In this document: in pieces, positions 20,746 to 47,563 of the stretch
How the letters are laid out: each line of letters opens with the position of its first letter
Position numbering within the stretch: position 1 is the stretch's first letter
Assembly (NCBI GenBank): GCA_021513695.1
Contig: CP084166.1
Span: 928,001-992,000, forward strand
From: Candidatus Heimdallarchaeum aukensis
GTDB taxonomy: Archaea > Asgardarchaeota > Heimdallarchaeia > Heimdallarchaeales > Heimdallarchaeaceae
DNA: 64,000 nt
Reading direction: 5' to 3'
Notes under the pieces: model-generated
Told to the model about the DNA's origin: nothing
Databases searched by the model: none
What the model saw: only the letters and a program-made list of their open reading frames with translations
Translations under genes and position numbers: made by a program

Positions 20746-20850
20746 ATTGTATTTTTTTGTTTAAATTTTACAATTAATTTTTGAAAAAACAACCTTTAAA
20801 ATATTTTTTTCTTTCTGTTTTACCAATAAAACTTAATTATTGGTGTTCCA

Positions 20851-23785: not shown

Positions 23786-23791
23786 TAATAG

Positions 23792-26990: not shown

Positions 26991-27002
26991 CGAAATGATG
27001 GA

Positions 27003-27031: not shown

Positions 27032-27073
27032 TAGAGGTAGAAGTAATGGTATTAAATTCTTGGTGAAATTGTA

Positions 27074-28971: not shown

Positions 28972-31900
28972 GTTTAAGCTGAACTAAGTAGTGTGAAAAT
29001 TTCTTTTGTTCTTTGGAGGAGGACAACCTTCAACGAGTTTAAGCTGAACTAAGTAGTGTGAAAATCAGTCTGGGTATATTTTATGCCCCTCAATATTTTG
29101 AGTTTAAGCTGAACTAAGTAGTGTGAAAATTGCTGGCTGGACTGGGCATAATTTCCAGAAATCTCTGTTTAAGCTGAACTAAGTAGTGTGAAAATAGTAA
29201 AATAGCTTTTATTTATTCCGTAGTAATATATGGTTTAAGCTGAACTAAGTAGTGTGAAAATCGCTATTGTAGTCGAGTTAGAAGATGGAGAGATTGAGTT
29301 TAAGCTGAACTAAGTAGTGTGAAAATAAATATATTGTGATGAATTGGATAAAAGAACTAAAAGTTTAAGCTGAACTAAGTAGTGTGAAAATAAACCAGAA
29401 GGAATGACTTTCATTCCTGCTACAGGTTTAAGCTGAACTAAGTAGTGTGAAAATTAATCAGAATAAAATGCTCATAATCATTGGTATAATAGTTTAAGCT
29501 GAACTAAGTAGTGTGAAAATGCAAAGCAATGAAAGGAGTGTTTTGTCTGGTGAGGTCGTTTAAGCTGAACTAAGTAGTGTGAAAATCAATCAGATTTGAG
29601 GGACAAAATAGTCCCGTTGGGACGTTTAAGCTGAACTAAGTAGTGTGAAAATACTGAAGAACAAGAAAAGAATATAAAAAGAACCAAGGTTTAAGCTGAA
29701 CTAAGTAGTGTGAAAATTAATATATCTATCGACTTGAACAAATTAGTTGAAGAGGGTTTAAGCTGAACTAAGTAGTGTGAAAATGGTAAATCCCCCAACA
29801 ATCCTGAAAGTGTTAAATTTGTTTAAGCTGAACTAAGTAGTGTGAAAATATTGTTCTTTTTTCAAATCATCTATTTTTTTTGCTCGTTTAAGCTGAACTA
29901 AGTAGTGTGAAAATTACAATTGACAGTAGTCACACACAAACCATTTAGGTGTTTAAGCTGAACTAAGTAGTGTGAAAATAAAATTCTTCGTGTGTCATAT
30001 AAAAGGCATCATCAGTTTAAGCTGAACTAAGTAGTGTGAAAATAGATCAGAGAGACTTGGGTAGAGTTAGTGAGATCTATGTTTAAGCTGAACTAAGTAG
30101 TGTGAAAATTACATATTTTTGAATAATTGAGACATGCATATGACGTTTAAGCTGAACTAAGTAGTGTGAAAATACAGCTCTCAACTGATAAGAGCGTTCT
30201 TTTTCATTGTTTAAGCTGAACTAAGTAGTGTGAAAATTTGTCAAAGTGTTTGTATAAGTGTCAATATAATCTGTTTAAGCTGAACTAAGTAGTGTGAAAA
30301 TATGTCTTTAGAGACTTGTTGAAGAGCAGGATTGTCAGGTTTAAGCTGAACTAAGTAGTGTGAAAATCAAGCATTTCTGCGATAACGACACCAGAACCAT
30401 TAAGTTTAAGCTGAACTAAGTAGTGTGAAAATTAAATGTGGTCGTGTATCGTTATATGGTGCTCTGAAATGTTTAAGCTGAACTAAGTAGTGTGAAAATA
30501 TATCTCCAGAGTGCCAAATTTCAACATTTGACACGTTTAAGCTGAACTAAGTAGTGTGAAAATCCAATTAATTAAGCCGCTGTTTCAAAAGGTGGTTCAG
30601 TTTAAGCTGAACTAAGTAGTGTGAAAATTTCGATGGATCCATAAAGGTAAATTAGGATCCCAAAAGTTTAAGCTGAACTAAGTAGTGTGAAAATAAAAAG
30701 CCAAGAGATGGATTGATGAACAAAAAAACCGTTTAAGCTGAACTAAGTAGTGTGAAAATCAGTCTGGATAGAGTTTGTGCCCATTAATATTCTGAATTGT
30801 TTAAGCTGAACTAAGTAGTGTGAAAATAGAGTAGGATTGTCAGATTGATCCATAAGGTATAGAAGTTTAAGCTGAACTAAGTAGTGTGAAAATGGTGACG
30901 CCACAAGCGAGGCATTCCCAAGCTCAATAGTTTAAGCTGAACTAAGTAGTGTGAAAATGGATTAAAAAATATGTCTCCTCTCGCTCGTTACGGGTTTAAG
31001 CTGAACTAAGTAGTGTGAAAATAATATCTTTAGATACCTGTTGAAGAGCGGAGTTGGTTTAAGCTGAACTAAGTAGTGTGAAAATCCAAAATTCTCGACT
31101 GCCTCTAAAGCAAATGAGAAAGTTTAAGCTGAACTAAGTAGTGTGAAAATTTTTTTTTCTGTCTGTTATTTCTTCTACTTCTTCTGTTTAAGCTGAACTA
31201 AGTAGTGTGAAAATTTATGATATGCGAACGTTTGCATGTTTGCGAATACAAGTTTAAGCTGAACTAAGTAGTGTGAAAATAGAAAACGTTTGGCTCGAAT
31301 GGATTGGTTTCTATGTCGTTTAAGCTGAACTAAGTAGTGTGAAAATTTGCTAAACCCGCCGCATAATCTTTTTTCTTTTATTTTGTTTAAGCTGAACTAA
31401 GTAGTGTGAAAATTAACCTGCAGAAATATCTTGTAAAATCTTGAATTCAACCTTGTTTAAGCTGAACTAAGTAGTGTGAAAATTAGTTTTGATTTGTAAA
31501 AGACGGATATCCACTTGTTGTGCTGTTTAAGCTGAACTAAGTAGTGTGAAAATATCAACACGTGGGTTTCTATCCAAATCTAATCCTCTGTTGTTTAAGC
31601 TGAACTAAGTAGTGTGAAAATAGCGATATAAAGAAGTTATCCTTTTCAGTATAATAAGGTTTAAGCTGAACTAAGTAGTGTGAAAATAAATTTCTAAAAA
31701 TATTGAAAGGTCAAAATCAAGATTGTTTAAGCTGAACTAAGTAGTGTGAAAATCTAACATGTGTAAGATTCATTGGGCCAATCCAAATTGTTTAAGCTGA
31801 ACTAAGTAGTGTGAAAATCTAAACACAATTTGCATGATGCCATGCTTGTTTTTTGTTTAAGCTGAACTAAGTAGTGTGAAAATGTTGGTTGTGTATAGTG

Positions 31901-33583
31901 TAAATAGATTTTTCTGATTGGGTTTAAGCTGAACTAAGTAGTGTGAAAATTTCTACTTCAAAGAATGAGCACCAATAGTTAAACCAGTTTAAGCTGAACT
32001 AAGTAGTGTGAAAATGCTTCATCTGCTAAAAGTTGTAGTTGTTCATAAAGGTTTAAGCTGAACTAAGTAGTGTGAAAATTGTGCTACATATATACACACC
32101 TATATCCTGTTTATCGTTTAAGCTGAACTAAGTAGTGTGAAAATATCCTGATAGGTGAGTCCTACAGGAGAAAGAAAAAGTTTAAGCTGAACTAAGTAGT
32201 GTGAAAATATCCTGATAGGTGAGTCCTACAGGAGAAAGAAAAAGTTTAAGCTGAACTAAGTAGTGTGAAAATCCCAATAGCATCCTCTTTTATCTGGGGC
32301 TTGGTTTATGTTTAAGCTGAACTAAGTAGTGTGAAAATCTGTGATTTCTGCGGAAATAAACATGTGACGGAAAGTTTAAGCTGAACTAAGTAGTGTGAAA
32401 ATGCAACTCTTTCCGTCCAGCGCACTAAAGCTGCTTTTGGGTTTAAGCTGAACTAAGTAGTGTGAAAATGTTTTTCATGGTAGCTTGCTACCAAAAATTT
32501 ACTTAAAAGTTTAAGCTGAACTAAGTAGTGTGAAAATGAGACTGTTAATAGCGAAGTCAGATTCCTCAAAAGGTGTTTAAGCTGAACTAAGTAGTGTGAA
32601 AATTTGTCTTTACACAGGGCATTCTCAGTTCTGGAGGAAGTTTAAGCTGAACTAAGTAGTGTGAAAATCACATAAACAAATTAGAAAGCGAAATAACCAC
32701 AGTTGTTTAAGCTGAACTAAGTAGTGTGAAAATCAATATTCTTCATCTTCTTCTAAATCATACAATAGCGTTTAAGCTGAACTAAGTAGTGTGAAAATAG
32801 AAAAGAGGAACCGTTGTTCTTAAAGGTAAAAATCGTTTAAGCTGAACTAAGTAGTGTGAAAATAAAGAGTATTGAACTCCTGGTTCAAAACTGATTTTGC
32901 AGTGTTTAAGCTGAACTAAGTAGTGTGAAAATTAATTGCTTTTTTGTCTGCATGACTTGGTAATTCAAAGTTTAAGCTGAACTAAGTAGTGTGAAAATTT
33001 CAAGGTGAGACCAACGATCCTGGTTACTTCGGTTGTTTAAGCTGAACTAAGTAGTGTGAAAATAATATGTAATTAAATAAGTTTTTATTGTGGTAAAATG
33101 TTTAAGCTGAACTAAGTAGTGTGAAAATACATTAAGAAAACGCTTACCATCTAAAGAAACAATCGTTTAAGCTGAACTAAGTAGTGTGAAAATTCATAAG
33201 TTGACCAATATTCAGAAATTACATAACGTTTAAGCTGAACTAAGTAGTGTGAAAATGAAAGCGTTTAGAATTGGTGGCGGTTCTGGTTGCAGGTTTAAGC
33301 TGAACTAAGTAGTGTGAAAATTACTGGGCAATGGAAAAAAGCTGTTGCCGCATTCAAGTTTAAGCTGAACTAAGTAGTGTGAAAATTAACTCACTCGCTC
33401 ACCCTCAGAGAGAGCCACAAACGTTTAAGCTGAACTAAGTAGTGTGAAAATTAATTTACGTCATGACTATGATGCGACCCCCAACGAGGTTTAAGCTGAA
33501 CTAAGTAGTGTGAAAATATTTGACTACTAGGTTTAGGTTTGAATATGAACCAGAGTTTAAGCTGAACTAAGTAGTGTGAAAAA
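28972..33583 (+). CRISPR. CRISPR array 2: 71 repeats and 70 spacers, of which 69 are unique. The repeat is GTTTAAGCTGAACTAAGTAGTGTGAAAAT. The terminal repeat is degenerate (..GAAAAA).
   Basis: 29-nt repeats with a ~65-bp period. The leader-distal last repeat has one mismatch. One spacer (atcctgataggtgagtcctacaggagaaagaaaaa) is present twice in tandem (32145-32179 and 32209-32243). Confidence 0.97.
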
Positions 33584-36246: not shown

Positions 36247-36484
36247 TCCAAAAGTAAGATTATTTTGAACCATTTTTTAGGAATAAGAAAAAATGGTTAT
36301 AGATGTAAAAAAAATCGGTAGATGTATGAAATATACTTTTCACAAGTTTTGTGATGGAAAATATAGGTATCACATCATTTACTTGTAGATCATTTGTCAT
36401 ATTTACTTGGTTCCTAAATTAATAGAGTAAACATTCGTTGTTTTTTTATCCAAAAATTATAATAATGCTTTCTTTATTTTATAA

Positions 36485-37351
36485 GTGAAAAAAATGAGTG
36501 ATGATAATAATTTTTCTTCTGATTTAAATAATGCCGATAGTGATTTTCTTTTTTCTTCCTCTTCTTTTGAGTCAAACCTTATTAATGGTGAAAAGGTCTT
36601 TAACGATTTTCTTATTCCTTATCGAACTATTTCTTTTTTTGGTCTTGTAGTCTTGACTTTATCCTTTCTTTTGCCTTTGATAGTTATTTTAGTTGTTCAG
36701 TTTGGTACTGATTTTTCTAGAGCTGTTAAATACACTATTGATGTCATAATGGGTTTGTGGCTATTTTTCACTTTCTTGTTTTTCTTTTTCATTGGTTCAA
36801 GTAATCAACGACTTATTATTACTAACTTTCGTTTAATTTGCATTAGAGAGTATTTTCCTTTTTTCTTTAAGAAGTTTAGAATTCTCAAGGAATGTTCTAC
36901 TGATATTAATAGTGTTACTCTTGTTGAGCGCAAAAAGTTTTCTCGTCCTGAACCTTTTATGTTTTTCACTGGATTGTTGATGTTTTTTGTTAGTTTATTA
37001 CTTTTTATTTCTATTAAGATTGTTGAGCAGTTCAACATTTCTTCTTTCATTCAATATAAGAAAACCATTCTTATTAGTAGTTCAATACTTTTGATTCTTT
37101 CTTTTATGCTTATTATTTATGCTATATTCTTTTTCTCCAAGAATATTTACAAACTAGCTTTTTCCATTGGTCAAACTTATCCTCTACCGCCTGTTATTGA
37201 CAGATTATTTTCAAGGAGTTTGAAAGCTGGTTATTGGGTAATTTACGGTTGGGAAAAAGATTCAAAAAGGATGTATGAAGAAGCTCCTCAAATACTATTT
37301 TCTCTTAAATTTGATAAGCATCTTCAACAGAATAATTTGAAGGAGCATTAA
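36485..37351 (+). CDS. Phe-rich integral membrane protein (4-6 TM) of unknown function. The real start is probably the ATG at 36497.
   Basis: Hydrophobic segments. GGTGA-like GTGAAAAAAATG context. Confidence 0.5.
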   Translation: MKKMSDDNNFSSDLNNADSDFLFSSSSFESNLINGEKVFNDFLIPYRTISFFGLVVLTLSFLLPLIVILVVQFGTDFSRAVKYTIDVIMGLWLFFTFLFFFFIGSSNQRLIITNFRLICIREYFPFFFKKFRILKECSTDINSVTLVERKKFSRPEPFMFFTGLLMFFVSLLLFISIKIVEQFNISSFIQYKKTILISSSILLILSFMLIIYAIFFFSKNIYKLAFSIGQTYPLPPVIDRLFSRSLKAGYWVIYGWEKDSKRMYEEAPQILFSLKFDKHLQQNNLKEH

Positions 37352-37789
37352 TTTTTTTTATTACTTTCAACAAGTGGGACTTTTTTAACTAACTTACTAG
37401 CATAATAATTTTTTACTAACTTATTTTTCACTTATAATTCTTATTCTTCTCCTTTTTCTTTACTTTTTTCTTTCTTTATCCTTCTTTATTAATTTCTGTT
37501 AGTACCGACAATTCTTTAACCACATTATTAATTTTAAAAAATGGAATATGAATTCTTAAGCTTCCAAAATGGATCTTTATTTAATGAGACTCACTGTTGT
37601 AGAAATTTAATTTAAAACTATGACTTTTGTACAGAAACTTTTTTTACGAAGTTTTGGGTGTACACCTATTGCTAAGTTTTTTCCTGTTTGCTTCTTACTT
37701 TGCTGTTTCTTTGATTGAATTATTCCTATGCTTTTAATTCCTATTGTTAAGGAGTAATAACAGGAGAAGCTCTTGCGTGAGGGAATAAG

Positions 37790-38053
37790 ATGTCACAAGC
37801 AAAATTTCGTATTTATTGGAAGTCCTATTATCCTGAACGCATTACAGAGGAGTACATCAAAGCTGATAATCCTTGTCACGCTTTACTCTTAATTCGTGAC
37901 AAGTTCTTTGCTGAACATTCTGACGATATTTATTGTGCTTATGTATTTAGTCTACAAGTGAGAAAGGAAGGTTGTTGGGCTGATTGGACTTCTGAGAATG
38001 GTTTAGACATTACTACTCTTGCTGAAGAATTAGAGCTATTTACTTACTCTTGA
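37790..38053 (+). CDS. Small hypothetical protein (87 aa) with a codon usage that is atypical for this window (more G/C third positions).
   Basis: An ORF preceded by a ~440-bp non-coding stretch. Confidence 0.35.
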   Translation: MSQAKFRIYWKSYYPERITEEYIKADNPCHALLLIRDKFFAEHSDDIYCAYVFSLQVRKEGCWADWTSENGLDITTLAEELELFTYS

Positions 38054-38198
38054 TCTTGGTTCTTGTGTTGACAAGTAAAATATTCATAATTGTGCTTTCT
38101 ATGATGACTGAATAAAGTCCGATTGATTGAATTCTTCGTTGCTATTAAAGTTCTTTGATTTTGTTTAATTTTCTTTTCTTTCTTTTTTCTTTTATTCT

Positions 38199-39230
38199 TT
38201 ATTTTTCTTTCTTTGCTTCGTCTTTTGCTCTGTTTTTTGTTTTTATTTTATTTGTTCGTTCTGTCTCTATTTCTTTTTCTTCTATTTTTTTACTTTTATC
38301 TAGTATAATTATTATTACTCCTGCTATTATTCCTATTCCTCCCAGAATGTAAGATAGTGTTATTGGTTCTTTTAGTATTATTGCGCCTAGTATTATTGCG
38401 AACACTGGTTCATCTAGTAGTAGTAATGAGCTTTTTGATGACTCTTGATATTTTGCTGAGATCATCAACAGTCCATATGGTATTACGCTTCCTGCTAGTG
38501 CGAATCCTATTCCTATTAGTATTATTTTTGTTTTCATTATATTTTCTATTTCCATTTTTGCTAACTCTTCTGGTAGGGGTAGTATTGAGAACATTATTAG
38601 TAGAGGTAGAGCTATAATTATTGCCCATGATATCACCCAAGCTATTGATAGGGAATAGGGAACGTTTTTTCTTTTTTCTGCGCTTGCTCTTCCTACTAAA
38701 AGGTAGAAAGCGTAGAACAGTCCATTTAGTATTGCTAGAGTTGTTCCAACTATTGATGACATAAATGACTCCCATTTCCACACTTCTGTCAATGTGATTA
38801 ATCCTGCTGTTGCTACTATTATTGCTAGTATTTTGCTTTTTGTTATCCTTTCTTTTAGGAATATCCTTCCCAGTATTAGTGTTATGAACGGGTGTATCTG
38901 TATTAGCAGTGCTGCTTCTCCTGCTGGTGTTCCTACTGCTATTGAACTTAGGTAAACAACTATCATCATTACGAAGATTAAACTTTGTAACAGGTATGTT
39001 TTCTGATTTGTTAGCTTAATCGAGTTCTTTACTTGTTCTTTGTTTTTCTTTAATGTGTAGAAAACTATTATTCCTAACCCAAATATCGAACCGAAGAATA
39101 TTCTTAGCAATGATTGTTCTATACTTGAAACATTCAGATCTCTTAATATTGCTGAGATTACTGGTATTGAACCAAAAAATAGTCCTGCTGTGATTGATGC
39201 TAAATATGAAAAATTAGTTTTTTTATCCAT
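38199..39230 (-). CDS. DMT superfamily (EamA-like) transporter with 10 TM helices and a Lys/Glu-rich C-terminal tail.
   Basis: Two EamA-like halves and a polytopic profile. Confidence 0.7.
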   Translation of the reverse strand: MDKKTNFSYLASITAGLFFGSIPVISAILRDLNVSSIEQSLLRIFFGSIFGLGIIVFYTLKKNKEQVKNSIKLTNQKTYLLQSLIFVMMIVVYLSSIAVGTPAGEAALLIQIHPFITLILGRIFLKERITKSKILAIIVATAGLITLTEVWKWESFMSSIVGTTLAILNGLFYAFYLLVGRASAEKRKNVPYSLSIAWVISWAIIIALPLLIMFSILPLPEELAKMEIENIMKTKIILIGIGFALAGSVIPYGLLMISAKYQESSKSSLLLLDEPVFAIILGAIILKEPITLSYILGGIGIIAGVIIIILDKSKKIEEKEIETERTNKIKTKNRAKDEAKKEK

Positions 39231-39347
39231 TCTGGTTCGGGGTGTTTTTCTTTTTCACATTTATCAATCTTTACTCTTTCTCCATTCAATTTTCTATTAT
39301 TTATTCTTTCTTTTTTTCTCATTCTTTTCTGATTTTTACTATTTTTT

Positions 39348-39396
39348 CTATCAAACTTATCTATCAAACTTTTCTATCAAACTTTTCTATCATTTC
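39348..39396. repeat. Tandem 13-nt repeat (CTATCAAACTTTT x3.5) in the divergent intergenic region between the DMT transporter and the HIT gene.
   Basis: Read directly from the sequence: ctatcaaacttat ctatcaaactttt ctatcaaactttt ctatcatttc. Confidence 0.7.
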
Positions 39397-39445
39397 TTAT
39401 GCAGCTTTTTCATAATTTTCTTAAATTGAAATTTTTCTTTCTCAT

Positions 39446-39904
39446 ATGGACTGCAGTTGGTGCAATTTAGATAGTTTTTCTGACTATTTCATTTACGACA
39501 GTGAATATTTCAGCGTTTATCTTTCTGAAGATCAAAGTCTTTTAGGTAGACTTATCTTGGTTCTTAATCGTCACGCTTCTTCTTTAAGTGATTTGACTCA
39601 TGAAGAAATACATGATTTTCTTTCTAATGTTAAAATCATTGAAAAAACTTTGACTAAAGCCTTTGGTACAACTATGTTTAATTGGAGTTGTTTGATGAAC
39701 AATTCTTTCAAAAAGCAACCTAGTTTTCCTCATGTCCATTGGCATTGTCGTCCTCGTTATGCTCACGATGTTTCTTTTACTGGTTTAGTTTTTTCTGACC
39801 CTGATTTTGCTCATCATTATAATAACAAAAGAAAACTTTTTGTCTCTCCTGAGGTTCGACAATCTATTATTTCTGCCATCCGAGACAATCTCTCTTCTGT
39901 CTAA
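39446..39904 (+). CDS. HIT-family hydrolase.
   Basis: A histidine triad motif (HVHWH) in a HIT-like context near the C-terminal third. It is 152 aa. Confidence 0.65.
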   Translation: MDCSWCNLDSFSDYFIYDSEYFSVYLSEDQSLLGRLILVLNRHASSLSDLTHEEIHDFLSNVKIIEKTLTKAFGTTMFNWSCLMNNSFKKQPSFPHVHWHCRPRYAHDVSFTGLVFSDPDFAHHYNNKRKLFVSPEVRQSIISAIRDNLSSV

Positions 39905-40187
39905 TTTATAGAAATTATTTTTTCTCTTCCTTCTTCTTTCCTTCAGATATGTTTGTACTTTACTTCTACTTTTTTTTGTTTCTTTCTTTCTTCCTTCCAC
40001 TTGTTTAAACATATAACCTTTTCTTATTTTATTTTGTAAGGCATTTTATCATTCTACTTTTTATATTCTAGGCCCACCTAATCCATTTGCACTTTTTTTC
40101 GAAACGCTTTTAAACATGCTCAAATATTTTTCATTGATTGAAGAATCTTTCTTCGGTCATAATAATAACAAATTAGAAGGAATTATT

Positions 40188-42281
40188 ATGAAAAAAAGAA
40201 TGTTAATAACAAGCATTTTCATTTTTGCCTTTTTAGTAGCAGTTATTCCTTTAACTGCAAATGCTAAAGTCCTTTCTACTAGAGCTACAAAGGATTTGGG
40301 CGGTGGAGATGCTTATAACGCATATAGTGCATCTGATTATGCAACCCTTATTAGTACACCTATTTCGGGTTACGGAGATATTTACTATTCCAGTGATCAG
40401 TATGATCAATACAAAGTAGCAGTAAGTTCAGGAGATCAAGTAACGATTGAGTTTACTGCCCCTAGTGGAGCAACAGGAATTGATCTTCCTGTTTATGACA
40501 CTGACAAGTCTCGAATACTCATTCGTTACAACATCCAGACTTTCTCCGAGACTGTTACTGCTTCTGGCAACGGTTACATTTACTTTACTATAGATGCAGA
40601 CACTTATGATGATAGAGGTACTTATTATCTCAGTGTTTCTAAATCTGGAGCAGTTGACACTACTCCACCTACTGTAAGTATTACTGACCCTGCTGATGGA
40701 GCAACTGTTTATTCTGCAGATGTCACTGTTTCATGGACTGGTTCTGACAATGTCGGCATAGACTATTACGAGGTCAGAATTGATGGTGGTTCATGGATCA
40801 ATGTCGGAACATCTACAAGCTACACCTTTACTGGTTTAGCTGACGGTAGTCATACTGTAGATGTTAACGCTTATGACGCTGCAGGAAATGTTGGTTCTGA
40901 CAGTGTAACTTTCACTGTTGATACCAGTGCTCCTCCTACTGAGTATACTTTCACTGGTTCACTTAGTGCTGGACAGGACAGTACTCAACACACCTTTAAC
41001 GTTCCTTCCAACACCATTAAGATCGAGGTTCAGCTTCAAATGCCCAGTGGTGCAGATTACGATTTAAGCCTTTGGGACTCTAATGGAGCTCGAACTGGTG
41101 GTTGGACTTCAACTGATAGTAGTACTAAAACAGATATTGCCAACAGTGATTATTCTGGTTATTCTGCTGATCCTGAGTGGGTTACTGTTGATCCTCCTGC
41201 TGTTTTTGGTACCTGGAAGACTGGTTGTTATGCTTACAGTGGTTCTGGTACTTACACCATCACTGTTACTCTAACGCTCAGTGGTCCAGATACTACTGCA
41301 CCTACTGTTACTATAACTGACCCAACAGATGGTTCTACAGTTAATTCTGCTGATGTTACTGTTTCATGGACTGGTTCTGACGATGTTGGTATTGACCACT
41401 ATGAAGTCAGAATCGATGGTGGTTCATGGATCAATGTTGGAACATCTACAAGCTACACCTTTACTGGTTTAGCTGACGGCAGTCACACTGTAGATGTTAA
41501 TGCCTATGATGCTGCAGGTAACGTTGGTTCTGACAGTGTGACTTTCACTGTTGATACCACTACCAATCCTGTTGAAAAATGGGCAGTTATTGTTGGTATT
41601 AGTGACTACAAAGCTATTAGTGATCTTTCTTACTGTGATGAGGATGCAACTGACTGGTATTATCAACTTACCAGCAGTCAAATGAGTTATGACCATATCA
41701 CTGTTTTAGGAGATGGATATTCTTCTAACTATCCTCAATGGGATGGCTATGCTACAGAGTACAATGTTAAACAAGCTTTGAACAACATGGTTAATTCTGC
41801 TGACTCTAATGACATTATAGCTTTCATCAGTTCTGGTCATGGTTCGGGTAATGGTGCAGGTTCTTCATACTTGTGTATGTGGGACTGCAGTTCAGGAGAA
41901 AACGGAGAAGATGGAAATCTCTATGACACTGAATTAGCAGCAATTCTTGACGGAGCTGTTGCTGACAGGATTTTCGTCTTCTTAGACCATTGTTACAGTG
42001 GTGGTTTTGGAGACGACCTCATGAATATGCCTAACAAAGACCGTGTTTACCTAACAACAACCTGTACAGAAAATGGTTATGGTTATGATGACTCCACTCA
42101 TCAAAATGGTGCTTGGACTTACTACTTCCTAGATTACTCTTGGCAGCAACATTTCGGTGGTGCAGCTAATGTTGCTATGGAAGACATCTTCGACTATGCT
42201 TTAGCTGCTTATCCATACAGTGGTGGAGACACTCCTCAAGAGTTCGATGGAAACACAGGTGCGTACTTCTACCTGGCATAA
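40188..42281 (+). CDS. Secreted multidomain protein. It has a signal peptide, two near-identical Ig-like domains, a pre-peptidase-C-terminal-like domain and a C-terminal caspase-like (peptidase C14/metacaspase-like) domain.
   Basis: Signal peptide MKKRMLITSIFIFAFLVAVIPLTANA. A caspase His/Cys dyad context (SSGHGSG .. LDHCYSGGFG). The ORF-track start at 40116 is probably too far upstream. Confidence 0.7.
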   Translation: MKKRMLITSIFIFAFLVAVIPLTANAKVLSTRATKDLGGGDAYNAYSASDYATLISTPISGYGDIYYSSDQYDQYKVAVSSGDQVTIEFTAPSGATGIDLPVYDTDKSRILIRYNIQTFSETVTASGNGYIYFTIDADTYDDRGTYYLSVSKSGAVDTTPPTVSITDPADGATVYSADVTVSWTGSDNVGIDYYEVRIDGGSWINVGTSTSYTFTGLADGSHTVDVNAYDAAGNVGSDSVTFTVDTSAPPTEYTFTGSLSAGQDSTQHTFNVPSNTIKIEVQLQMPSGADYDLSLWDSNGARTGGWTSTDSSTKTDIANSDYSGYSADPEWVTVDPPAVFGTWKTGCYAYSGSGTYTITVTLTLSGPDTTAPTVTITDPTDGSTVNSADVTVSWTGSDDVGIDHYEVRIDGGSWINVGTSTSYTFTGLADGSHTVDVNAYDAAGNVGSDSVTFTVDTTTNPVEKWAVIVGISDYKAISDLSYCDEDATDWYYQLTSSQMSYDHITVLGDGYSSNYPQWDGYATEYNVKQALNNMVNSADSNDIIAFISSGHGSGNGAGSSYLCMWDCSSGENGEDGNLYDTELAAILDGAVADRIFVFLDHCYSGGFGDDLMNMPNKDRVYLTTTCTENGYGYDDSTHQNGAWTYYFLDYSWQQHFGGAANVAMEDIFDYALAAYPYSGGDTPQEFDGNTGAYFYLA
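40653..41566 (+). repeat. Intragenic tandem duplication. A ~270-bp domain-coding unit occurs twice (40653-40925 and 41293-41566) at ~90% nucleotide identity.
   Basis: The protein block TTPPTVSITDPADGATVYSADVTVSWTGSDNVGIDYYEVRIDGGSWINVGTSTSYTFTGLADGSHTVDVNAYDAAGNVGSDSVTFTVDT is repeated as TTAPTVTITDPTDGSTVNSADVTVSWTGSDDVGIDHYEVRIDGGSWINVGTSTSYTFTGLADGSHTVDVNAYDAAGNVGSDSVTFTVDT. Confidence 0.9.
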
Positions 42282-42486
42282 CCTTTTTCTTTTTTTCTTT
42301 TTTCAGAGATTCCTTCGAAAATCTCTTTTTTTTCCTTTAATTTTAAGTAAATCTACATGTTTTCAAAAAATATGGATAAAGATTACCAGAAACACATTAT
42401 TGTTTTAGTTTCAAACAGATCAGAATAATTCATTTATTAAAAAAAAGAATAAATAAAGAATCTATTTCTTATTTTCTTTATTTAGT

Positions 42487-42900
42487 TTATTTTTCTGTTA
42501 TCCACATTTTATTGAAAGCTTTTCTTGTTGTTAGAATACTTGCTCCTATCCACGTTCTGTGCATTCTATCTGTGGTTGCTGTAATTCTTACAACTGCATT
42601 TTTTGGTGCAACTTTTTTCAATTCATAATCTATTCTTTCTCTCATTCCAGGTATCATTGAACTTCCTCCACATAAGATAACATTAGGCCACAACAGTTAT
42701 TCTATTTCTTTACATTTTTGTATAGTTTAAACTATTTCTTCAACTAAGCCTTTTTTCTTTTCCTTTTCGCTTTCTTCAAACAATATTTCTGGTGCAAGAA
42801 ACTTTTCTTTGCTAATTGTATACACAAAGAAAGGAGAATTTTTGTGAAAAGGTTTTTGGAAAAGCAGTTTATCAATACAAGGAACCAAGTTTAGGAGTAG
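42487..42900 (-). pseudogene. Actin-family (eukaryote-like actin/Lokiactin-like) C-terminal remnant with two in-frame TAA stops. The 5' two-thirds of the gene are absent.
   Basis: The minus-strand frame reads ..VYTISKEKFLAPEILFEESEKEKKKGLVEEIV*TIQKCKEIE*LLWPNVILCGGSSMIPGMRERIDYELKKVAPKNAVVRITATTDRMHRTWIGASILTTRKAFNKMWITEK. This aligns with the actin C-terminus (..[72 protein letters not shown]). Confidence 0.7.
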
Positions 42901-42930
42901 TTAAATGAAAAAAAAAGAAAAAGGAACACA

Positions 42931-43152
42931 CTATTCTTGTTTAACTGTAGATATCTTGAAAACTGTATATAATCCACAGTAACCTGTAATCCCAGTAATC
43001 AACGAGATTAATCCCACGATCAACAATATAATTAACAAGACCAAGTTTATTGGGGAGCTAAGTACAAAGTAGAAAACTATTGCCAAAACAGTTAGAATTG
43101 TTCCTAAAGCTACTCTTATTATTCTATCAGTTTTTCCTTCATTTACTTGCAT
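42931..43152 (-). CDS. Small two-TM membrane protein (YgaP/DUF2892-like).
   Basis: 73 aa with RIIRVALGTIL..GLISLITGITGYCGLYTVF. Confidence 0.5.
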   Translation of the reverse strand: MQVNEGKTDRIIRVALGTILTVLAIVFYFVLSSPINLVLLIILLIVGLISLITGITGYCGLYTVFKISTVKQE

Positions 43153-43278
43153 AGTGATTTAAAGTTCTTCAAAAGAGTATAAATATGTTAGTTATTTACA
43201 AAATCCTCGAATTAGCAGTAAAACAAATATAGATGCAAAAATCTGCCTGTTTTTAAGATATCTTAAATGTTCTGAGAG

Positions 43279-44042
43279 GGTAGTGTCTAGTTTTCTTCCG
43301 ACAAAAATATTTGTGGGGACTCTAATAGTAAGATATGAACATTCAAAAACTATCTACTCTTTTTAAGAGATGCAGAGTCCCCAAAAAGATAATAATAAAA
43401 GTTTTTTATGAATATATTGGTTCAAAGAATGGTTTGAGGACAGTAGCATGGAAGAATGGTTTAACACACCAAACATTATGGTATTGGGTAAAGAAGTTCA
43501 GGCTCTTTAGGAAAAGTTTACATAGAATTGTAGCAGAGAGAGGGGGAATACCAGAGATTATAGTAGTTGATGAGACGGAGATTAAGACCTCTCAAGGCTC
43601 AATGTATATGTGGTTCGCGTTAGATCCTTACAACAAGACTTTACTGGGTTTTAGTATTACTAAAGGACGGAGTAATCTTGAATGTTTACTAACTTTCCGT
43701 TATTGGCTCAAATGTTGGGGTTTTAAGCCCCGTATTGTCGTTACAGATGCAGGGGTATGGTATCCTGCCTTACTTCGTCTAGGTATCAAAATCTCCGTTA
43801 TCAAAGGTGGTTTACGCTCCTATATTGAACGTTTTAATGCTACTCTTAAGAGTTATCGTTGGTTTCATTCTATTCTCCACTGCACTTGTCCTATCCGTGC
43901 CGTCTATGGCTCTACTCATCTTTCTGGTTTTCTTACTCTCTTTATGCTCCATTATAATTTCGTTCGTCCTCATCAGAGCTTGGGACATCCTCCCCTTAGT
44001 TCCTTTTTACCTAGGAGGTGGTATAAAAACTAGACACTACCA
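43279..44042 (+). mobile_element. IS6-family-like insertion sequence (764 bp) with 16-bp perfect terminal inverted repeats GGTAGTGTCTAGTTTT. It carries a single DDE transposase.
   Basis: IRL GGTAGTGTCTAGTTTT lies at 43279-43294. IRR AAAACTAGACACTACC at 44027-44042 is its exact reverse complement. The size, single ORF and GG-start IRs fit IS6. No clear target-site duplication is visible. Confidence 0.75.
43335..44033 (+). CDS. DDE transposase (IS6-like), 232 aa.
   Basis: An N-terminal HTH (LTHQTLWYWVKKF). The catalytic D..D..E context is VVDETEI, VVTDAG and ERFNATLK. A C-terminal YNFVRPHQSLG motif. Its stop codon lies inside the IRR. Confidence 0.75.
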   Translation: MNIQKLSTLFKRCRVPKKIIIKVFYEYIGSKNGLRTVAWKNGLTHQTLWYWVKKFRLFRKSLHRIVAERGGIPEIIVVDETEIKTSQGSMYMWFALDPYNKTLLGFSITKGRSNLECLLTFRYWLKCWGFKPRIVVTDAGVWYPALLRLGIKISVIKGGLRSYIERFNATLKSYRWFHSILHCTCPIRAVYGSTHLSGFLTLFMLHYNFVRPHQSLGHPPLSSFLPRRWYKN

Positions 44043-44372
44043 AGAAAGCAGGTCCAAAAATTAATTTTTATTAATGTGGGGGTTTATGTCGGAATTATGA
44101 ACTATTTTCAGATTATAGACCCCCACAAAGTAAGAAAATTCATATCATTAATGAACCTTTCCTTAAGAAACTGGTGAAAAATGGACCGAGAGAAAGTAAG
44201 AGAGGGAGAAAGAGAATAGCAGAAAGGTGGGTAATACTGGCTTTAGCAATCATTGCTAGAATAGAAGTACAACTACTTTTTACTTTTTCGGACCGTTTAT
44301 TAGGTGAAAAAGAATTTTTGGACATGCTTAATAAGAAAAAAGAAAAATTAATTATTTAATATGTTTATTTTG

Positions 44373-46013
44373 TTATTCTTTTTTAGTCCATACATCAATT
44401 ACATCTTTAGATTTCTTGAGAGTTAAAGCGTAAAAGATAACTGCCAAAAAACCAAAAGAACCTGCAACTATCCAGAAAACATAAGGTTTTTGCATCTGTA
44501 TGTCTGTTCTTACATTCAATTTTATTTCTGTTACATCATGTATCCAGGATTTCCCATCTGAAACAGCTACTTTAATGTAATATGAACCAGGTTCTACACC
44601 ATCTAGATCCCACAAGAATGAAGAGTTGTTAACATTTGTTGCTAAAAGATCCCAATATATTCCATCTTGAGAAACAAAAATAGAAGCATTAAGTTTGTCA
44701 TTATCTTCATCTGATGCAATCCATTGAATAGTATAGTTATCAAATACTTGATTAGGGTCTGAAGGGTTTTTTACCTCAATATTAGGCAAATTATTAGTGT
44801 AAGTCAGTTGAGGATTTTCTGCAAGAAAAAGTAACGATGGAAAAATCAATTCACAATTACTAATCACTTCATCAGCATCTGGGTTAAAATAATCAGTCCA
44901 ATAAGAGTAACTGTTTGTTCCAAAAGTTTCAATTGTGAAGCTCTTAATGTTGTGATATAAATAAGAATAGTCTCCCCATTCTCCAGAAGTTATATAGCCA
45001 TAAATTGTATCATTCCATAGGGGAAAATTAAGGATCTCTTGTAATTCAAGTAATAGAGCGTTGAACTCTTTTTCATCTTTTTCTGGTAATGAACCATTAA
45101 TTCCCCAAGGTGCTATTATTGCTTCAACACCACTGTGTAAACTTACAGCAAAATTAAAAGAATGATTATACATGAAATTACGTAATGCTCTTGTTTCTGG
45201 TTCACTGAAGGGATAAGCGCCATGATATGTGTCATCTCTCCTAAATGGAGAAGCACCTTGGTCGCCCCAAAAAGCTCCATAATTCCTATTTAGGTCTACT
45301 CCTCCTGGTCTGTCTTCTCCAATGTACCCGCTTCCGTCAATGTCTTTTTCTTCGATGTCAGAGCTGTTTGTTTCAGTGTTCCAGAAATATACTCTCTCCT
45401 TTTCATCGTCTAAACTTCCATCAAGATCGTCATCAATTGGAGCCAAGTTTTTGCGTTGTTCTGGATACCAGTGTAAAATAGAGATACCATCAGGATTAAG
45501 CATGGGAATTACATAAATTTCTGTACTTTGAAGTAAGTAGTCAAAAATTGAATCATAAATTGTGTTAAATATAATCCAATCAATAAAGTATAGTGCATTT
45601 TCAACAGTAATTACTTCTCTAGCATGATGAGCTGCAACAATGTAATACTCAGTTTTAGCAGAAGTAACAGTTTCATCGGTTAAACGAACAGCCCAGATAG
45701 TTCTGTTTTCCCAAGTCTTCCCAATGGAAAAAACTTCCACTAATTCAGGAAAAGAATTATTCAGAATAATGAGTTTATTTGTAACTTCAGTGTAATTATG
45801 ATATGGTCCAAGTGATTCTCCCCAATAAACAAAATCTTCTCCTGGTATGTCAGAGGGAGCATTAGAAAACTCGTCCCAAATCCAAGAATATTCTGGTTCT
45901 TCTGCTAAATAAACATACTCTGGAGTATTCTTAGCAGAAATTGAAGATATTAAATGTGAGTTTAAGAATAAAACAATTACAATTAAGGAAATAACTTGAT
46001 ACTTTTTCATCAT
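44373..46013 (-). CDS. Secreted M14-family zinc carboxypeptidase-like protein with a C-terminal TM anchor.
   Basis: Signal peptide/TM at the N-terminus. HHAREVIT (an HxxE zinc-binding motif as in M14 HAREW). A C-terminal hydrophobic helix followed by KKSKD. Confidence 0.65.
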   Translation of the reverse strand: MMKKYQVISLIVIVLFLNSHLISSISAKNTPEYVYLAEEPEYSWIWDEFSNAPSDIPGEDFVYWGESLGPYHNYTEVTNKLIILNNSFPELVEVFSIGKTWENRTIWAVRLTDETVTSAKTEYYIVAAHHAREVITVENALYFIDWIIFNTIYDSIFDYLLQSTEIYVIPMLNPDGISILHWYPEQRKNLAPIDDDLDGSLDDEKERVYFWNTETNSSDIEEKDIDGSGYIGEDRPGGVDLNRNYGAFWGDQGASPFRRDDTYHGAYPFSEPETRALRNFMYNHSFNFAVSLHSGVEAIIAPWGINGSLPEKDEKEFNALLLELQEILNFPLWNDTIYGYITSGEWGDYSYLYHNIKSFTIETFGTNSYSYWTDYFNPDADEVISNCELIFPSLLFLAENPQLTYTNNLPNIEVKNPSDPNQVFDNYTIQWIASDEDNDKLNASIFVSQDGIYWDLLATNVNNSSFLWDLDGVEPGSYYIKVAVSDGKSWIHDVTEIKLNVRTDIQMQKPYVFWIVAGSFGFLAVIFYALTLKKSKDVIDVWTKKE

Positions 46014-46165: not shown

Positions 46166-46414
46166 ATGAAGAAAATGAGTAAGGAAAAAATCTCAATATC
46201 AATAGATGCAAGAGGGAGTCATTGCCCTGGACCAATGATGGAATTAATTAAAGCCATAAGACAGGCAGAAGTTGGAGAAATTGTTGAGCTTTTGAGTTCA
46301 GAGGAAGGATCTTTAAGTGATATTCCTGCATGGATTGAAAAAGCGAAACATGAACTTGTTGATATGATAAAAGAAGACGGTTATAATCGTTTTCTAGTCA
46401 GAAAAACGAGGTAA
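46166..46414 (+). CDS. tusA: TusA-like sulfurtransferase (CPxP motif).
   Basis: RGSHCPGPMMEL. 82 aa. The real start is probably the ATG at 46178. Confidence 0.8.
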   Translation: MKKMSKEKISISIDARGSHCPGPMMELIKAIRQAEVGEIVELLSSEEGSLSDIPAWIEKAKHELVDMIKEDGYNRFLVRKTR

Positions 46415-46420
46415 AGATTA

Positions 46421-47563
46421 ATGAATAAAATTATAGTCATTGGTGGAGGATTTTCAGGTCTTACTATAGCTAACAAACTTGCAAAAAAAGCTAGAAAATA
46501 CAAGTTAGACATAACTCTGATCGAACCAAAAGACCATAATTTTTACGAGCCAGATCTGATTTTTTATGCATTTAACAATAAGAAACTGTCCAAGTTATAT
46601 AAACCGATGCATAAACTCGTGAGGAAAAGAGTTAATCACATTGGGATGCGGGCTAAAAAGGTCGAGACAGAGAAAAAGAAAGTAATATTAGAAGATGGGA
46701 CAGAGTTAGATTACGATTATCTAGTTCTTGCTACTGGAGTTAAATATATAGAAAAAGATTTCAAATATAGTGAACAAAAACACATTCATCACTTCTATAG
46801 CCCACCAGCAACAGAAAAGTTTAGACAAATGATAAAACGTTTTAAAGGAGGAACAATTGTTATCTCACCATCAACTGTGCCCTATAAATGTCCTCCAGCT
46901 CCTGTAGAATTCACTTTTATGTTAGATTCTTATTTAAAGAAAAGAAAGTTAAGAGACAAAGCAACGATAAAGTTTCTCTATCCTCTTTCTGTGCCTTTTA
47001 CAGTTAAAGAAGCTGCTGTTGTGGTAGCTGAGATGTATAAAAAAAGAGGAATAGAATTTGTTCCTTACTGTAATTACGAAAAAGTGGATATTGAGAACAA
47101 AAAATTCATCTCTTTTGAAGGAGAAGAGATAGAATACGATGAACTTGTACTGCTACCCATACATGAAGGTCAAGATATAATCAAAGAATCAGGTCTGGGA
47201 GATAAAGAAGGATATGTTCCTACAGACAAATTCACACTGCAAGTGAAAGGGCATCCAAATATATATGCTATCGGTGACTGTACAGATCTACCTACTTCTA
47301 AGGCTGGAGCAGTTTCTCATTATTCTGCACCTACTATCGTAAAAAATATTATTAACCAGATTAAAGGAAAAGAAGCTTCAGCAAAGTATAACGGAAAGAC
47401 AATTTGCTTCTTAGTAACTAGTTATCAAAAAGCAATGATGTTGGACTTTTCATATAACCATCCTTCAAGAAAGTATGGATTAATTCCAATGAGAATCTAT
47501 ATGCTCTTTAAAAGGCTATTTAGGTTCTTGTATTTTCATATATTAATTAAAGGAATAATATAG
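46421..47563 (+). CDS. FAD-dependent pyridine nucleotide-disulfide oxidoreductase, sulfide:quinone oxidoreductase (SQR)-like.
   Basis: N-terminal Rossmann fold IIVIGGGFSGLTIANKL. Other motifs are YKCPPAPVE and AIGDCTDLPTSKAG. It lies among tusA/dsrE genes. Confidence 0.65.
   Translation: MNKIIVIGGGFSGLTIANKLAKKARKYKLDITLIEPKDHNFYEPDLIFYAFNNKKLSKLYKPMHKLVRKRVNHIGMRAKKVETEKKKVILEDGTELDYDYLVLATGVKYIEKDFKYSEQKHIHHFYSPPATEKFRQMIKRFKGGTIVISPSTVPYKCPPAPVEFTFMLDSYLKKRKLRDKATIKFLYPLSVPFTVKEAAVVVAEMYKKRGIEFVPYCNYEKVDIENKKFISFEGEEIEYDELVLLPIHEGQDIIKESGLGDKEGYVPTDKFTLQVKGHPNIYAIGDCTDLPTSKAGAVSHYSAPTIVKNIINQIKGKEASAKYNGKTICFLVTSYQKAMMLDFSYNHPSRKYGLIPMRIYMLFKRLFRFLYFHILIKGII

What the first reader, a model, noticed from the sequence alone, without database searches (positions are those of the whole stretch)
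40188..42281. Secreted caspase-like (C14) protein with a very recent internal domain duplication
The signal peptide is followed by two ~90-aa Ig-like domains whose coding sequences are ~90% identical at the nucleotide level (40653-40925 and 41293-41566). A PPC-like beta-sandwich lies between them, and a C-terminal caspase-like domain has His (SSGHGSG) and Cys (DHCYSGG) dyad motifs. This gene has higher local GC than its neighbours and lies near the IS. It is a candidate horizontally acquired extracellular protease/effector. An M14 carboxypeptidase with a membrane anchor lies 2 kb downstream.
Basis: partly seen in the sequence, partly recalled or inferred. Interest (0 to 1): 0.5.

Follow-up and report, generated by a model that had tools for sequence, protein, structure and literature searches.

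The report
Exported metacaspase-like protease of a Heimdallarchaeon
This gene encodes an exported, probably Arg/Lys-cutting, caspase-family protease that is inherited vertically and common in Asgard archaea; its two look-alike Ig domains are an old duplication kept similar by gene conversion, so the finding is real but fairly ordinary.

Summary
The gene at 40188-42281 (+) encodes a 697-aa protein: signal peptide, PPC-like sandwich, Big_7 Ig domain, second PPC-like sandwich, second Big_7, and a C-terminal Peptidase_C14 domain. His551 and Cys602 align with the catalytic dyad of metacaspases.

It is 100% identical to GenBank UJG41617.1, 'caspase family protein', of Ca. Heimdallarchaeum aukensis. 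Published PM71 primers match the window exactly.

1. The duplication is not very recent. The copies are 86-87.5% identical in DNA, with dS 0.54, at least as diverged as the two Heimdallarchaeum species (dS 0.21-0.49). Both copies occur in orthologues down to 68% identity. Against the Ca. H. endolithica orthologue, sites 1-69 group by position and sites 129-267 by genome (Fisher p=2.7e-6). That indicates an old duplication with later gene conversion.

2. Horizontal acquisition is not supported. The extra GC sits at codon position 2 and reflects a T/S/D/G/A/Y-rich, Lys/Arg-poor composition. GC3 is normal. The gene lies in a 6-kb block collinear with Ca. H. endolithica. Relatives are almost all Asgard archaea, with several paralogues per genome.

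The most likely role is a Sec-exported, basic-residue-specific endopeptidase that digests extracellular protein. No activity has been tested.

The parts
40188..42281 (+). Gene for the exported C14 protein (697 aa plus stop). GenBank model UJG41617.1 starts at 40116 and is probably 24 codons too long.
   Evidence: 100% identity to P0243/UJG41617.1; in-frame stops upstream in orthologues.
40174..40183 (+). Conserved Shine-Dalgarno-like TAGAAGGAAT, 5-14 nt upstream of the ATG.
   Evidence: identical in the window, L001, L002 and L003.
40188..40265 (+). Sec-type signal peptide, aa 1-26 (MKKR, hydrophobic core, ANA|K).
   Evidence: Read from the sequence. 168 of 225 family members have a comparable N-terminus by a crude hydrophobicity rule; most exceptions are truncated gene calls.
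40266..40655 (+). N-terminal PPC / collagen-binding-domain-like beta-sandwich, aa 27-156.
   Evidence: Pfam PPC only E 0.0064, below cutoff. hhalign to paralogue PPC is not significant. AF2 pLDDT 86.5. Foldseek hits ColG CBD 1nqj, PPC 5sv5, the Tk-SP jelly roll and GOLD domains.
40656..40928 (+). Big_7 Ig-like domain, copy 1, aa 157-247.
40929..41288 (+). Middle PPC-like beta-sandwich, aa 248-367.
   Evidence: hhalign 96%, E 4.4e-9 to canonical PPC domains of paralogues. No Pfam hit on its own.
41289..41561 (+). Big_7 Ig-like domain, copy 2, aa 368-458. 87.5% nt and 91% aa identical to copy 1. Its 3' two-thirds is homogenised with copy 1 by gene conversion.
41562..42278 (+). Peptidase_C14 (metacaspase-like) catalytic domain, aa 459-697. 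Single chain, no linker, ends at the C-terminus.
   Evidence: Pfam PF00656 36.8 bits. Profile hits to Yca1 (5.4e-11), AtMC4 and TbMCA2. AF2 pLDDT 93.6. Foldseek hits to GSU0716, AtMC9 and MALT1 with TM 0.66-0.73.
41838..41840 (+). Codon of catalytic His551 (SSGHGSG).
   Evidence: Aligned to the metacaspase catalytic His. Invariant in 43 family members (H98 in A1 numbering).
41991..41993 (+). Codon of catalytic Cys602 (DHCYSGG). Asp600, two residues before it, is invariant.
   Evidence: (C149 and D147 in A1 numbering).
43279..44041 (+). Context only: IS6-like insertion sequence with 16-bp perfect terminal inverted repeats and transposase 43335-44033. It lies just past the point (43203) where collinearity with Ca. 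H. endolithica ends.
44373..46013 (-). Context only: exported, C-terminally anchored M14 carboxypeptidase, convergent with the C14 gene. The adjacency is not conserved.

Best explanation
The gene encodes a Sec-exported, modular cysteine endopeptidase of the caspase family (C14, metacaspase/orthocaspase branch). It belongs to the resident gene set of Ca. Heimdallarchaeum aukensis.

After signal-peptide removal the mature protein of about 671 aa is very acidic and poor in Lys/Arg. It consists of four beta-sandwich modules (PPC-like, Big_7, PPC-like, Big_7) followed by a compact single-chain caspase-fold domain. The modules most likely act as a spacer or as binding arms for polymers or the cell envelope.

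The His551/Cys602 dyad sits in an acidic S1 pocket formed by Cys483, Asp486, Ser549 and Asp600. These are the equivalents of TbMCA2 Cys92, Asp95, Ser156 and Asp211. The enzyme should therefore cut after Arg or Lys, possibly helped by Ca2+. Its most likely job is to break down extracellular proteins for a peptide-fermenting archaeon. That would make it a functional analogue of the exported gingipain-like clan-CD peptidases of sediment archaea.

The two Big_7 modules come from an old duplication. They stay alike through purifying selection and recurrent gene conversion over their 3' two-thirds.

**Shown:** domain anatomy, dyad and pocket residues, fold, orthology and synteny, family distribution, and the mosaic pattern in the repeats.

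**Inferred:** export, P1 specificity, Ca2+ dependence and the nutritional role.
For: **Family and fold**
- C14 HMM hit above Pfam's threshold on the isolated domain.
- A family profile hits only metacaspases and the bacterial C14 protein GSU0716 among solved structures: Yca1 5.4e-11, C. glabrata MCA1 7.4e-10, AtMC4 5.3e-7, TbMCA2 5e-6.
- AF2 model pLDDT 93.6, pTM 0.92. Foldseek hits to clan CD structures have probability 1.0.

**Active site**
- The dyad and Asp600 are invariant, and Cys483, Asp486 and Ser549 are at least 90% conserved, in 43 family members.
- These residues align with the TbMCA2 S1-pocket residues named in PMC4357240.
- That review states that metacaspases strictly prefer Arg/Lys at P1.

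**Export**
- A canonical signal peptide is present, and no C-terminal anchor.
- In 229 of 231 family members the C14 domain ends within 10 aa of the C-terminus. 168 of 225 have a signal-like N-terminus.
- Many members are just signal peptide plus C14.
- The mature protein has pI about 4.05 and K+R 3.1%, against 10-20% in cytoplasmic neighbours.

**Vertical inheritance**
- 94%-identical orthologue in a collinear block of Ca. H. endolithica.
- At least 4 paralogues in that genome. 119 relatives in GTDB species genomes, almost all Asgard archaea.

**Repeat history**
-.

**Ecological precedent**
- Exported clan-CD (C25) peptidase genes dominate signal-peptide-bearing peptidases in anoxic sediments. 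Arg-specific substrates are hydrolysed fast there (PMC6752024).
Against: - No activity, localisation or expression data exist for any member of this family.
- The signal peptide was judged by eye and by a crude rule, not with a trained predictor.
- The whole-protein Pfam scan did not list C14, and identity to solved metacaspases is only about 15%.
- The Ca2+ site is only partly conserved. Asp566 and Asp580 are invariant, but the equivalents of TbMCA2 Asp190 and Asp220 are Thr or variable.
- Low K+R and an acidic pI are common in exported marine proteins, so they do not prove self-protection from a trypsin-like activity.
- A nutritional role is an analogy. Nothing in the neighbourhood, such as peptide transporters, supports it.
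Confidence: 0.6

Rival explanations
1. One reading: a horizontally acquired extracellular effector whose Ig domain was duplicated very recently.
For: - The gene has the highest GC of the ORFs measured in the window, 0.412.
- An IS6-like element lies 1 kb downstream.
- The copies are 86-87.5% identical in DNA.
Against: - GC3 is not deviant (z 1.4). The excess is at position 2 and comes from amino-acid composition.
- The gene and 3.7 kb upstream are collinear with Ca. H. endolithica at the same roughly 87% identity.
- dS between the copies is 0.54, at least the interspecies dS.
- Both copies occur in orthologues down to 68% identity.
- 13 of 14 position-supporting sites lie in nt 1-69.
- The family is Asgard-wide.
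Confidence: 0.04
2. An envelope-maturation enzyme. The exported clan-CD domain would process or ligate the cell's own surface proteins, in the manner of a sortase, PorU or legumain transpeptidase, rather than digest food proteins.
For: - Clan CD includes transpeptidases such as PorU and legumain-type ligases. Legumains appear among the fold hits.
- There are several paralogues per genome with varied binding modules.
- The Ig/PPC modules could dock on the envelope.
Against: - The NCBIfam PorU match covers only the Ig region, residues 209-284, not the catalytic domain.
- Sequence profiles match metacaspases only, not C13 or C25.
- No conserved partner or substrate gene lies nearby.
- There is no membrane anchor.
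Confidence: 0.15
3. An intracellular cell-death or defence caspase, like the EACC1- or CHAT-associated caspases of prokaryotic conflict systems. The N-terminal hydrophobic segment would be a membrane anchor rather than a cleaved signal.
For: - Weak NCBIfam match to 'caspase, EACC1-associated type' (E 3.4e-10).
- Large CRISPR arrays lie in the same window.
Against: - The score is 39.8 against a cutoff of 140.
- No effector or sensor domain is present. The architecture consists of typically extracellular modules (PPC, Big_7).
- An A-x-A cleavage site is present, and the mature part has an extremely acidic, Lys/Arg-poor composition.
- The CRISPR arrays end 6.7 kb or more upstream of the gene (33517 vs 40188) and are not adjacent to it.
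Confidence: 0.04
4. Mainly an adhesin or binding protein in which the caspase domain has a non-proteolytic role.
For: - Four of the five domains are binding-type beta-sandwiches.
- Pseudo-orthocaspases exist in bacteria (PMC6426788).
Against: - His, Cys and the pocket Asp residues are invariant or nearly so across 43 members. That argues for retained catalysis.
- Many family members are signal peptide plus C14 only.
Confidence: 0.07

Closest known systems
Metacaspases / orthocaspases (MEROPS C14B; Pfam PF00656), e.g. yeast Yca1, T. brucei MCA2, Arabidopsis MC4/MC9, Geobacter GSU0716
   Same: - Caspase-hemoglobinase fold.
- His-Cys dyad in the SGHG and DxCxSGG motifs.
- Equivalents of the four S1-pocket residues (Cys, Asp, Ser, Asp) that give Arg/Lys specificity.
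- Single-chain monomer-type layout.
   Different: - It is exported via a signal peptide, whereas known metacaspases are cytoplasmic.
- The catalytic domain is at the extreme C-terminus, behind PPC-like and Big_7 modules.
- It has no type I prodomain and no type II linker.
- About 15% identity to solved structures.
- The Ca2+ site is only half conserved.
- Invariant extra cysteines (Cys563, Cys626) might form disulfides; this was not tested.
Gingipains and gingipain-like C25 peptidases of sediment archaea and bacteria
   Same: - Exported clan-CD cysteine endopeptidases.
- Ig-like and adhesin modules.
- Arg/Lys P1 preference.
- Proposed role in extracellular protein degradation in anoxic sediments (PMC6752024).
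   Different: - It is a different family. Sequence profiles match C14 only, not C25.
- The module order is reversed: here the binding modules come first and the catalytic domain last.
- It has no T9SS C-terminal domain and no long prodomain.
Secreted peptidases carrying PPC (pre-peptidase C-terminal) or collagen-binding domains, e.g. clostridial collagenase ColG and Thermococcus Tk-SP subtilisin
   Same: The same beta-sandwich accessory fold, attached to an exported protease.
   Different: - The PPC-like modules here are N-terminal to the protease, not C-terminal.
- The catalytic class is cysteine (C14), not metallo or serine.
Concerted evolution of internal repeats in surface proteins
   Same: Intragenic repeats are more alike within a genome than between orthologous positions in related genomes. 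A sharp tract boundary is visible.
   Different: Only two copies are involved, separated by an unrelated 120-aa domain. The 5' 70 nt have escaped conversion since the two Heimdallarchaeum species split.

Membership tests
Peptidase family C14 (Pfam PF00656) | Significant match to the family HMM above the curated threshold. | tested here: met
   The isolated domain scores E 4.5e-9, 36.8 bits, against a cutoff of 21.4. The match is not listed in the whole-protein scan. Many homologues carry a precomputed PF00656 hit.
Peptidase family C14 (Pfam PF00656) | Catalytic His and Cys at the canonical positions (His in xSGHG, Cys in DxCxSGG). | tested here: met
   His551 and Cys602 align to the dyad of AtMC4, TbMCA2 and Yca1. 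Both are invariant in 43 relatives.
Peptidase family C14 (Pfam PF00656) | Caspase-hemoglobinase (clan CD) fold. | tested here: met
   AF2 pLDDT 93.6. Foldseek hits to GSU0716, AtMC9, MALT1 and legumain with E 5e-11 to 1e-8 and TMq 0.61-0.73.
Metacaspase/orthocaspase branch (C14B) | Acidic S1 pocket (TbMCA2 Cys92, Asp95, Ser156, Asp211), giving Arg/Lys specificity. | tested here: met
   Cys483, Asp486, Ser549 and Asp600 align to these residues. The residue list comes from PMC4357240. Asp600 is invariant and the other three are at least 90% conserved.
Metacaspase/orthocaspase branch (C14B) | Cleavage after Arg/Lys; Ca2+ dependence. | not testable with these tools
   This needs enzyme assays. For the Ca2+ ligands, the equivalents of TbMCA2 Asp173 and Asp189 are invariant Asp. 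The equivalents of Asp190 and Asp220 are Thr or variable.
Type I / type II metacaspases | N-terminal Pro-rich or zinc-finger prodomain (type I), or a long p20-p10 linker (type II). | tested here: not met
   The catalytic domain is a compact 239 aa with no linker. It is preceded by a signal peptide and beta-sandwich modules.
EACC1-associated caspase (NCBIfam NF047832) | Score above the curated cutoff. | tested here: not met
   39.8 bits against a cutoff of 140.
Gingipain / PorU (C25) | C25 catalytic domain match. | tested here: not met
   The PorU model matches only residues 209-284, the Ig region, at 36.6 bits against a cutoff of 420. No C25 chain appears among the profile hits in the PDB.
Big_7 (PF17957) | HMM match above threshold. 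| tested here: met
   Two stretches, E 2.1e-21, 76.8 bits against 24.1.
PPC (PF04151) | HMM match above threshold. | tested here: not met
   The N-terminal domain scores 17.8 bits against 25.9, and the middle domain has no hit. By other tests both are PPC-like: the middle domain by hhalign at 96%, the N-terminal domain by fold.
IS6 family insertion sequence (neighbour) | Single DDE transposase, 700-900 bp, short terminal inverted repeats. | tested here: inconclusive
   The element is 763 bp with 16-bp perfect inverted repeats. The best NCBIfam match is the IS6 transposase, but at 47 bits against a cutoff of 125. No target-site duplication was looked for.

The most novel reading that the evidence does not exclude
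The Asgard-wide family of exported, single-chain metacaspase-like peptidases may be the archaeal sister group, or source, of eukaryotic metacaspases. Its best sequence matches among solved structures are fungal type I metacaspases, ahead of the one bacterial C14 structure. If so, the ancestral role of the metacaspase lineage would have been extracellular Arg/Lys-specific digestion rather than cell death. The eukaryotic enzymes would then come from the archaeal host rather than from the mitochondrial ancestor.
Probability: 0.1. Interest if true: 0.65.

Novelty: new member of a known kind. Interest (0 to 1): 0.3.

Why it matters
Asgard archaea are the closest known relatives of the eukaryotic host cell, and the cultured ones live by fermenting peptides and amino acids. 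An exported, multi-copy, modular family of metacaspase-like peptidases runs across Heimdall-, Loki-, Thor-, Njord- and Hermod-archaea. It is a plausible part of how they obtain those peptides.

The family is also a data point for the origin of eukaryotic metacaspases. MEROPS already noted C14 and M14 as families shared by Asgard archaea and yeast but absent from the other archaea compared (PMC5753285).

For this particular gene the practical value is corrective:
- It is not a recent acquisition.
- Its repeat is not young.
- The GenBank start codon is probably wrong.

The repeat is a clean small example of a gene-conversion tract with a visible boundary.

Tried and rejected
- **Whole-protein Pfam scan.** Scanning the isolated C-terminal 241 aa recovered C14 above threshold. 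The miss is a scoring or filter effect in a repeat-rich, compositionally biased protein.
- **Exact look-up of the 697-aa product.** It found nothing because GenBank uses the longer 721-aa model. Cluster listing and BLASTP resolved this.
- **hhalign of the N-terminal domain against paralogue PPC domains.** Not significant. Its fold was settled by AF2 plus Foldseek instead.
- **DNA for the 68%-identical orthologue P0005.** It could not be fetched, so that orthologue was used only at protein level.
- **Functional link with the M14 gene.** Considered and rejected. The adjacency is not conserved, the two genes are separated by an IS, and they lie at a synteny break.
- **C13 or C25 membership.** Considered because of fold hits and a PorU hit. 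Rejected on sequence profiles.
- **Rfam scan of the window.** No match.
- **Literature searches.** They found no description of this exported Asgard C14 family, only the MEROPS remark that C14 occurs in Asgard proteomes.
- **Disulfide prediction.** Model coordinates could not be inspected, so the disulfides suggested by the invariant cysteines remain untested.
Full report
**What is there**

The ORF 40116..42281 (+) is 100% identical over 721 aa to GenBank UJG41617.1, 'caspase family protein' of Candidatus Heimdallarchaeum aukensis.

The window comes from that genome. Wu et al. 2022 (PMC8813620) published a primer pair for PCR-verifying the end-joining region of the PM71 assembly. Both primers match exactly, at 42768-42794 (+) and 44174-44200 (-).

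- Orthologues L002 and L003 have in-frame stop codons 3-4 codons upstream of the equivalent ATG.
- All four loci conserve TAGAAGGAAT 5-14 nt upstream.

**Anatomy of the 697-aa product**

| Residues | Window coordinates | Domain | Evidence |
|---|---|---|---|
| 1-26 | 40188-40265 | Sec-type signal peptide (MKKR, hydrophobic core, ANA\|K) | Read from the sequence |
| 27-156 | 40266-40655 | PPC / collagen-binding-type beta-sandwich | Pfam PPC only E 0.0064; AF2 pLDDT 86.5; Foldseek hits to ColG CBD, a B. anthracis PPC domain and the Tk-SP jelly roll |
| 157-247 | 40656-40928 | Big_7, copy 1 | E 2.1e-21, 76.8 bits for both copies together |
| 248-367 | 40929-41288 | PPC-like sandwich | hhalign 96%, E 4.4e-9 to canonical PPC domains of paralogues |
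| 368-458 | 41289-41561 | Big_7, copy 2 | |
| 459-697 | 41562-42278 | Caspase-family (C14) domain | See below |

**The C14 domain**

The whole-protein Pfam scan did not list C14. The isolated domain scores 36.8 bits, E 4.5e-9, against a threshold of 21.4.

A profile of 43 relatives matches only metacaspases and GSU0716 among all PDB sequences:

| Chain | E-value |
|---|---|
| Yca1 | 5.4e-11 |
| C. glabrata MCA1 | 7.4e-10 |
| AtMC4 | 5.3e-7 |
| TbMCA2 | about 5e-6 |
| AtMC9 | 3e-4 |
| GSU0716 | 1.5e-3 |

The AF2 model is confident (pLDDT 93.6, pTM 0.92). Foldseek finds clan-CD structures with TMq 0.61-0.73.

**Active site**

His551 (SSGHGSG) and Cys602 (DHCYSGG) align with the catalytic dyad. 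Both are invariant in the family.

Cys483, Asp486, Ser549 and Asp600 align with TbMCA2 Cys92, Asp95, Ser156 and Asp211. PMC4357240 names these as the putative S1 pocket of an enzyme class with strict Arg/Lys preference. Asp600 is invariant and the others are at least 90% conserved.

Of the four Ca2+-ligand aspartates of TbMCA2, two have invariant Asp equivalents (Asp566, Asp580). The other two do not.

**The repeat**

The two Big_7-coding segments are 86% identical over 287 nt. In codon register they are 87.5% identical in DNA and 91% in protein, and the flanks are unrelated.

1. Synonymous divergence between the copies is 0.54 (0.89 in codons 1-40, 0.34 in codons 41-91), with dN 0.04. The window gene and its Ca. 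H. endolithica orthologue differ by dS 0.21-0.49, depending on the domain.
2. Orthologues at 94%, 85%, 85% and 68% identity all carry both copies at the same positions.
3. In the four-sequence comparison of window and Ca. H. endolithica:
   - 14 informative sites group the copies by position, and 13 of these lie in nt 1-69.
   - 12 sites group them by genome, all in nt 129-267.
   - 1 site supports the third topology.
   - Fisher p = 2.7e-6.
4. In the more distant orthologues L002 and L003 the copies group by genome along the whole length (25 vs 3 and 23 vs 3 sites).

The simplest reading is an old duplication. Gene conversion has repeatedly homogenised its 3' two-thirds, including after the aukensis/endolithica split. 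The 5' 70 nt have kept position-specific differences since before that split. Purifying selection (dN/dS about 0.07) accounts for the rest of the protein-level similarity.

**Is it foreign?**

The gene is GC-richer than its neighbours (0.412 vs 0.317 +/- 0.036). The excess is at codon position 2 (0.480 vs 0.310, z 3.3). GC3 is 0.277 vs 0.232 +/- 0.033 (z 1.4).

The cause is composition. The protein is rich in T, S, D, G, A and Y, with only 3.1% Lys+Arg in the mature part. Cytoplasmic neighbours have 10-20%.

Window 36451-42456 is collinear with the Ca. H. endolithica chromosome at about 87% nt identity. This covers the 288-aa membrane protein, the 87-aa ORF, the EamA transporter, the HIT protein and the C14 gene. 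The 73-aa membrane protein gene at 42909-43203 is also shared.

Collinearity ends at 43203, just before the IS6-like element. That element spans 43279-44041 and has perfect 16-bp inverted repeats.

The IS and the rearrangement are thus downstream of the gene and do not include it. The M14 carboxypeptidase (44373-46013, -) lies beyond the break and is not near the orthologue in Ca. H. endolithica. No functional link between the two peptidases can be inferred.

**The family**

A search with the C14 domain alone found 308 proteins. Every one that carries a name is from Asgard archaea (Heimdall, Promethearchaeota/Loki, Thor, Hod, Hermod).

A scan of one genome per GTDB species found 119 relatives. 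The best 80 are:
- Asgard archaea, including the cultured Promethearchaeum syntrophicum MK-D1 and Lokiarchaeum ossiferum.
- About six Bathyarchaeia.
- One contig binned as Spirochaetia.

Ca. H. endolithica alone has at least four copies (L010, L014, L031, L049). Ca. H. aukensis has at least one further paralogue (P0123).

Architectures are modular. The C14 domain is always last, ending within 10 aa of the C-terminus in 229 of 231 members. It is preceded by 0-8 PPC-like and Big_7 modules in many orders. 106 of 248 proteins are C14 only.

By a crude rule, 168 of 225 C14-bearing members have a signal-peptide-like N-terminus. Most of the rest are visibly truncated gene calls.

**Mechanism proposed**

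1. The protein is exported through Sec and the signal peptide is cleaved.
2. The beta-sandwich modules hold or target the enzyme. This is inferred from the known roles of PPC/CBD and Ig modules.
3. The C14 domain cleaves after Arg or Lys. This is inferred from the conserved pocket.

The most likely purpose is extracellular protein degradation for a peptide-fermenting organism. This parallels the exported gingipain-like C25 peptidases that dominate signal-peptide-bearing peptidase genes in anoxic sediments. Arg-P1 substrates are among the fastest hydrolysed there (PMC6752024).

The extreme scarcity of Lys/Arg in the mature protein fits self-protection from such a specificity, but it is not specific evidence.

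Rival explanations (an envelope-processing or transpeptidase role, an intracellular death or defence caspase, a non-catalytic adhesin) are less well supported. They are laid out separately in this report.

**Novelty**

The gene is already annotated as a caspase family protein. MEROPS noted in 2017 that C14 and M14 homologues occur in Asgard proteomes (PMC5753285).

I found no paper describing three things: that this Asgard family is exported, that it is modular, and that its Ig repeats evolve in concert. It is a new, uncharacterised member and subfamily of a known kind, not a new kind of system.

The most novel reading that cannot be excluded is that this family is the archaeal sister of eukaryotic metacaspases. 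That needs a proper phylogeny.

Noticed in passing
window 42487-42693 (-): A 68-aa ORF (MWPNVILCGGSSMIPG...WIGASIL...MWITEK) is the C-terminal end of an actin-fold protein. NCBIfam 'syringactin' matches at E 5.3e-11, covering model positions 204-269 of 286. It lies in a roughly 450-bp stretch (42457-42908) that is absent from the collinear Ca. H. endolithica locus. It is probably a truncated remnant of an actin-like gene.
   Followed up: partly
window 42768-42794 (+) and 44174-44200 (-): Exact matches to the primer pair that Wu et al. 2022 (PMC8813620) used to verify the 'end-joining region' of the Ca. H. aukensis PM71 assembly. This identifies the source genome. It also shows that the IS6-like element between the C14 and M14 genes is where the assembly was closed. 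The authors report confirming the junction by PCR and Sanger sequencing. A short-read contig carrying the M14 gene ends near 44207.
   Followed up: yes
window ~10406-16355 and ~29358-33517: Two long CRISPR arrays share the same 29-nt repeat (GTTTAAGCTGAACTAAGTAGTGTGAAAAT) in opposite orientations, with a period of about 65 nt. No ORF of 60 aa or more occurs in 9895-16569. The arrays flank ORFs 16570-28591, which are probably cas genes but were not checked. The ORFs at 1095-9894 (-) were also not examined.
   Followed up: partly
window 40116-40187: The GenBank protein model UJG41617.1 starts 24 codons upstream of the conserved start. The Ca. H. endolithica model (P0001) likewise starts 18 codons upstream of it. 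Orthologues have stop codons in that stretch, so the deposited N-termini are probably over-extended and would hide the signal peptide from predictors.
   Followed up: yes
window 46166-47563 and beyond; locus L004: Beyond the M14 gene lies a sulfur-relay and redox cluster: several TusA genes, DsrE/DrsE_2 genes, a Pyr_redox_2/FCSD-type flavoprotein, and FlpD with heterodisulfide-reductase-like Fer4 proteins.
   Followed up: no
locus L037 (CAYPZJ010000293.1, 'uncultured Spirochaetia bacterium' MAG): This is the only bacterial-labelled genome among the 80 best family loci (63% identity to the C14 domain). It sits on a 6.7-kb contig. It could be a mis-binned archaeal contig or a real transfer.
   Followed up: no
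window 42931-43152 (-): A 73-aa ORF with two hydrophobic segments is conserved next to the C14 gene in Ca. H. endolithica (89% nt identity, L001 12306-12600). It has no family match.
   Followed up: partly
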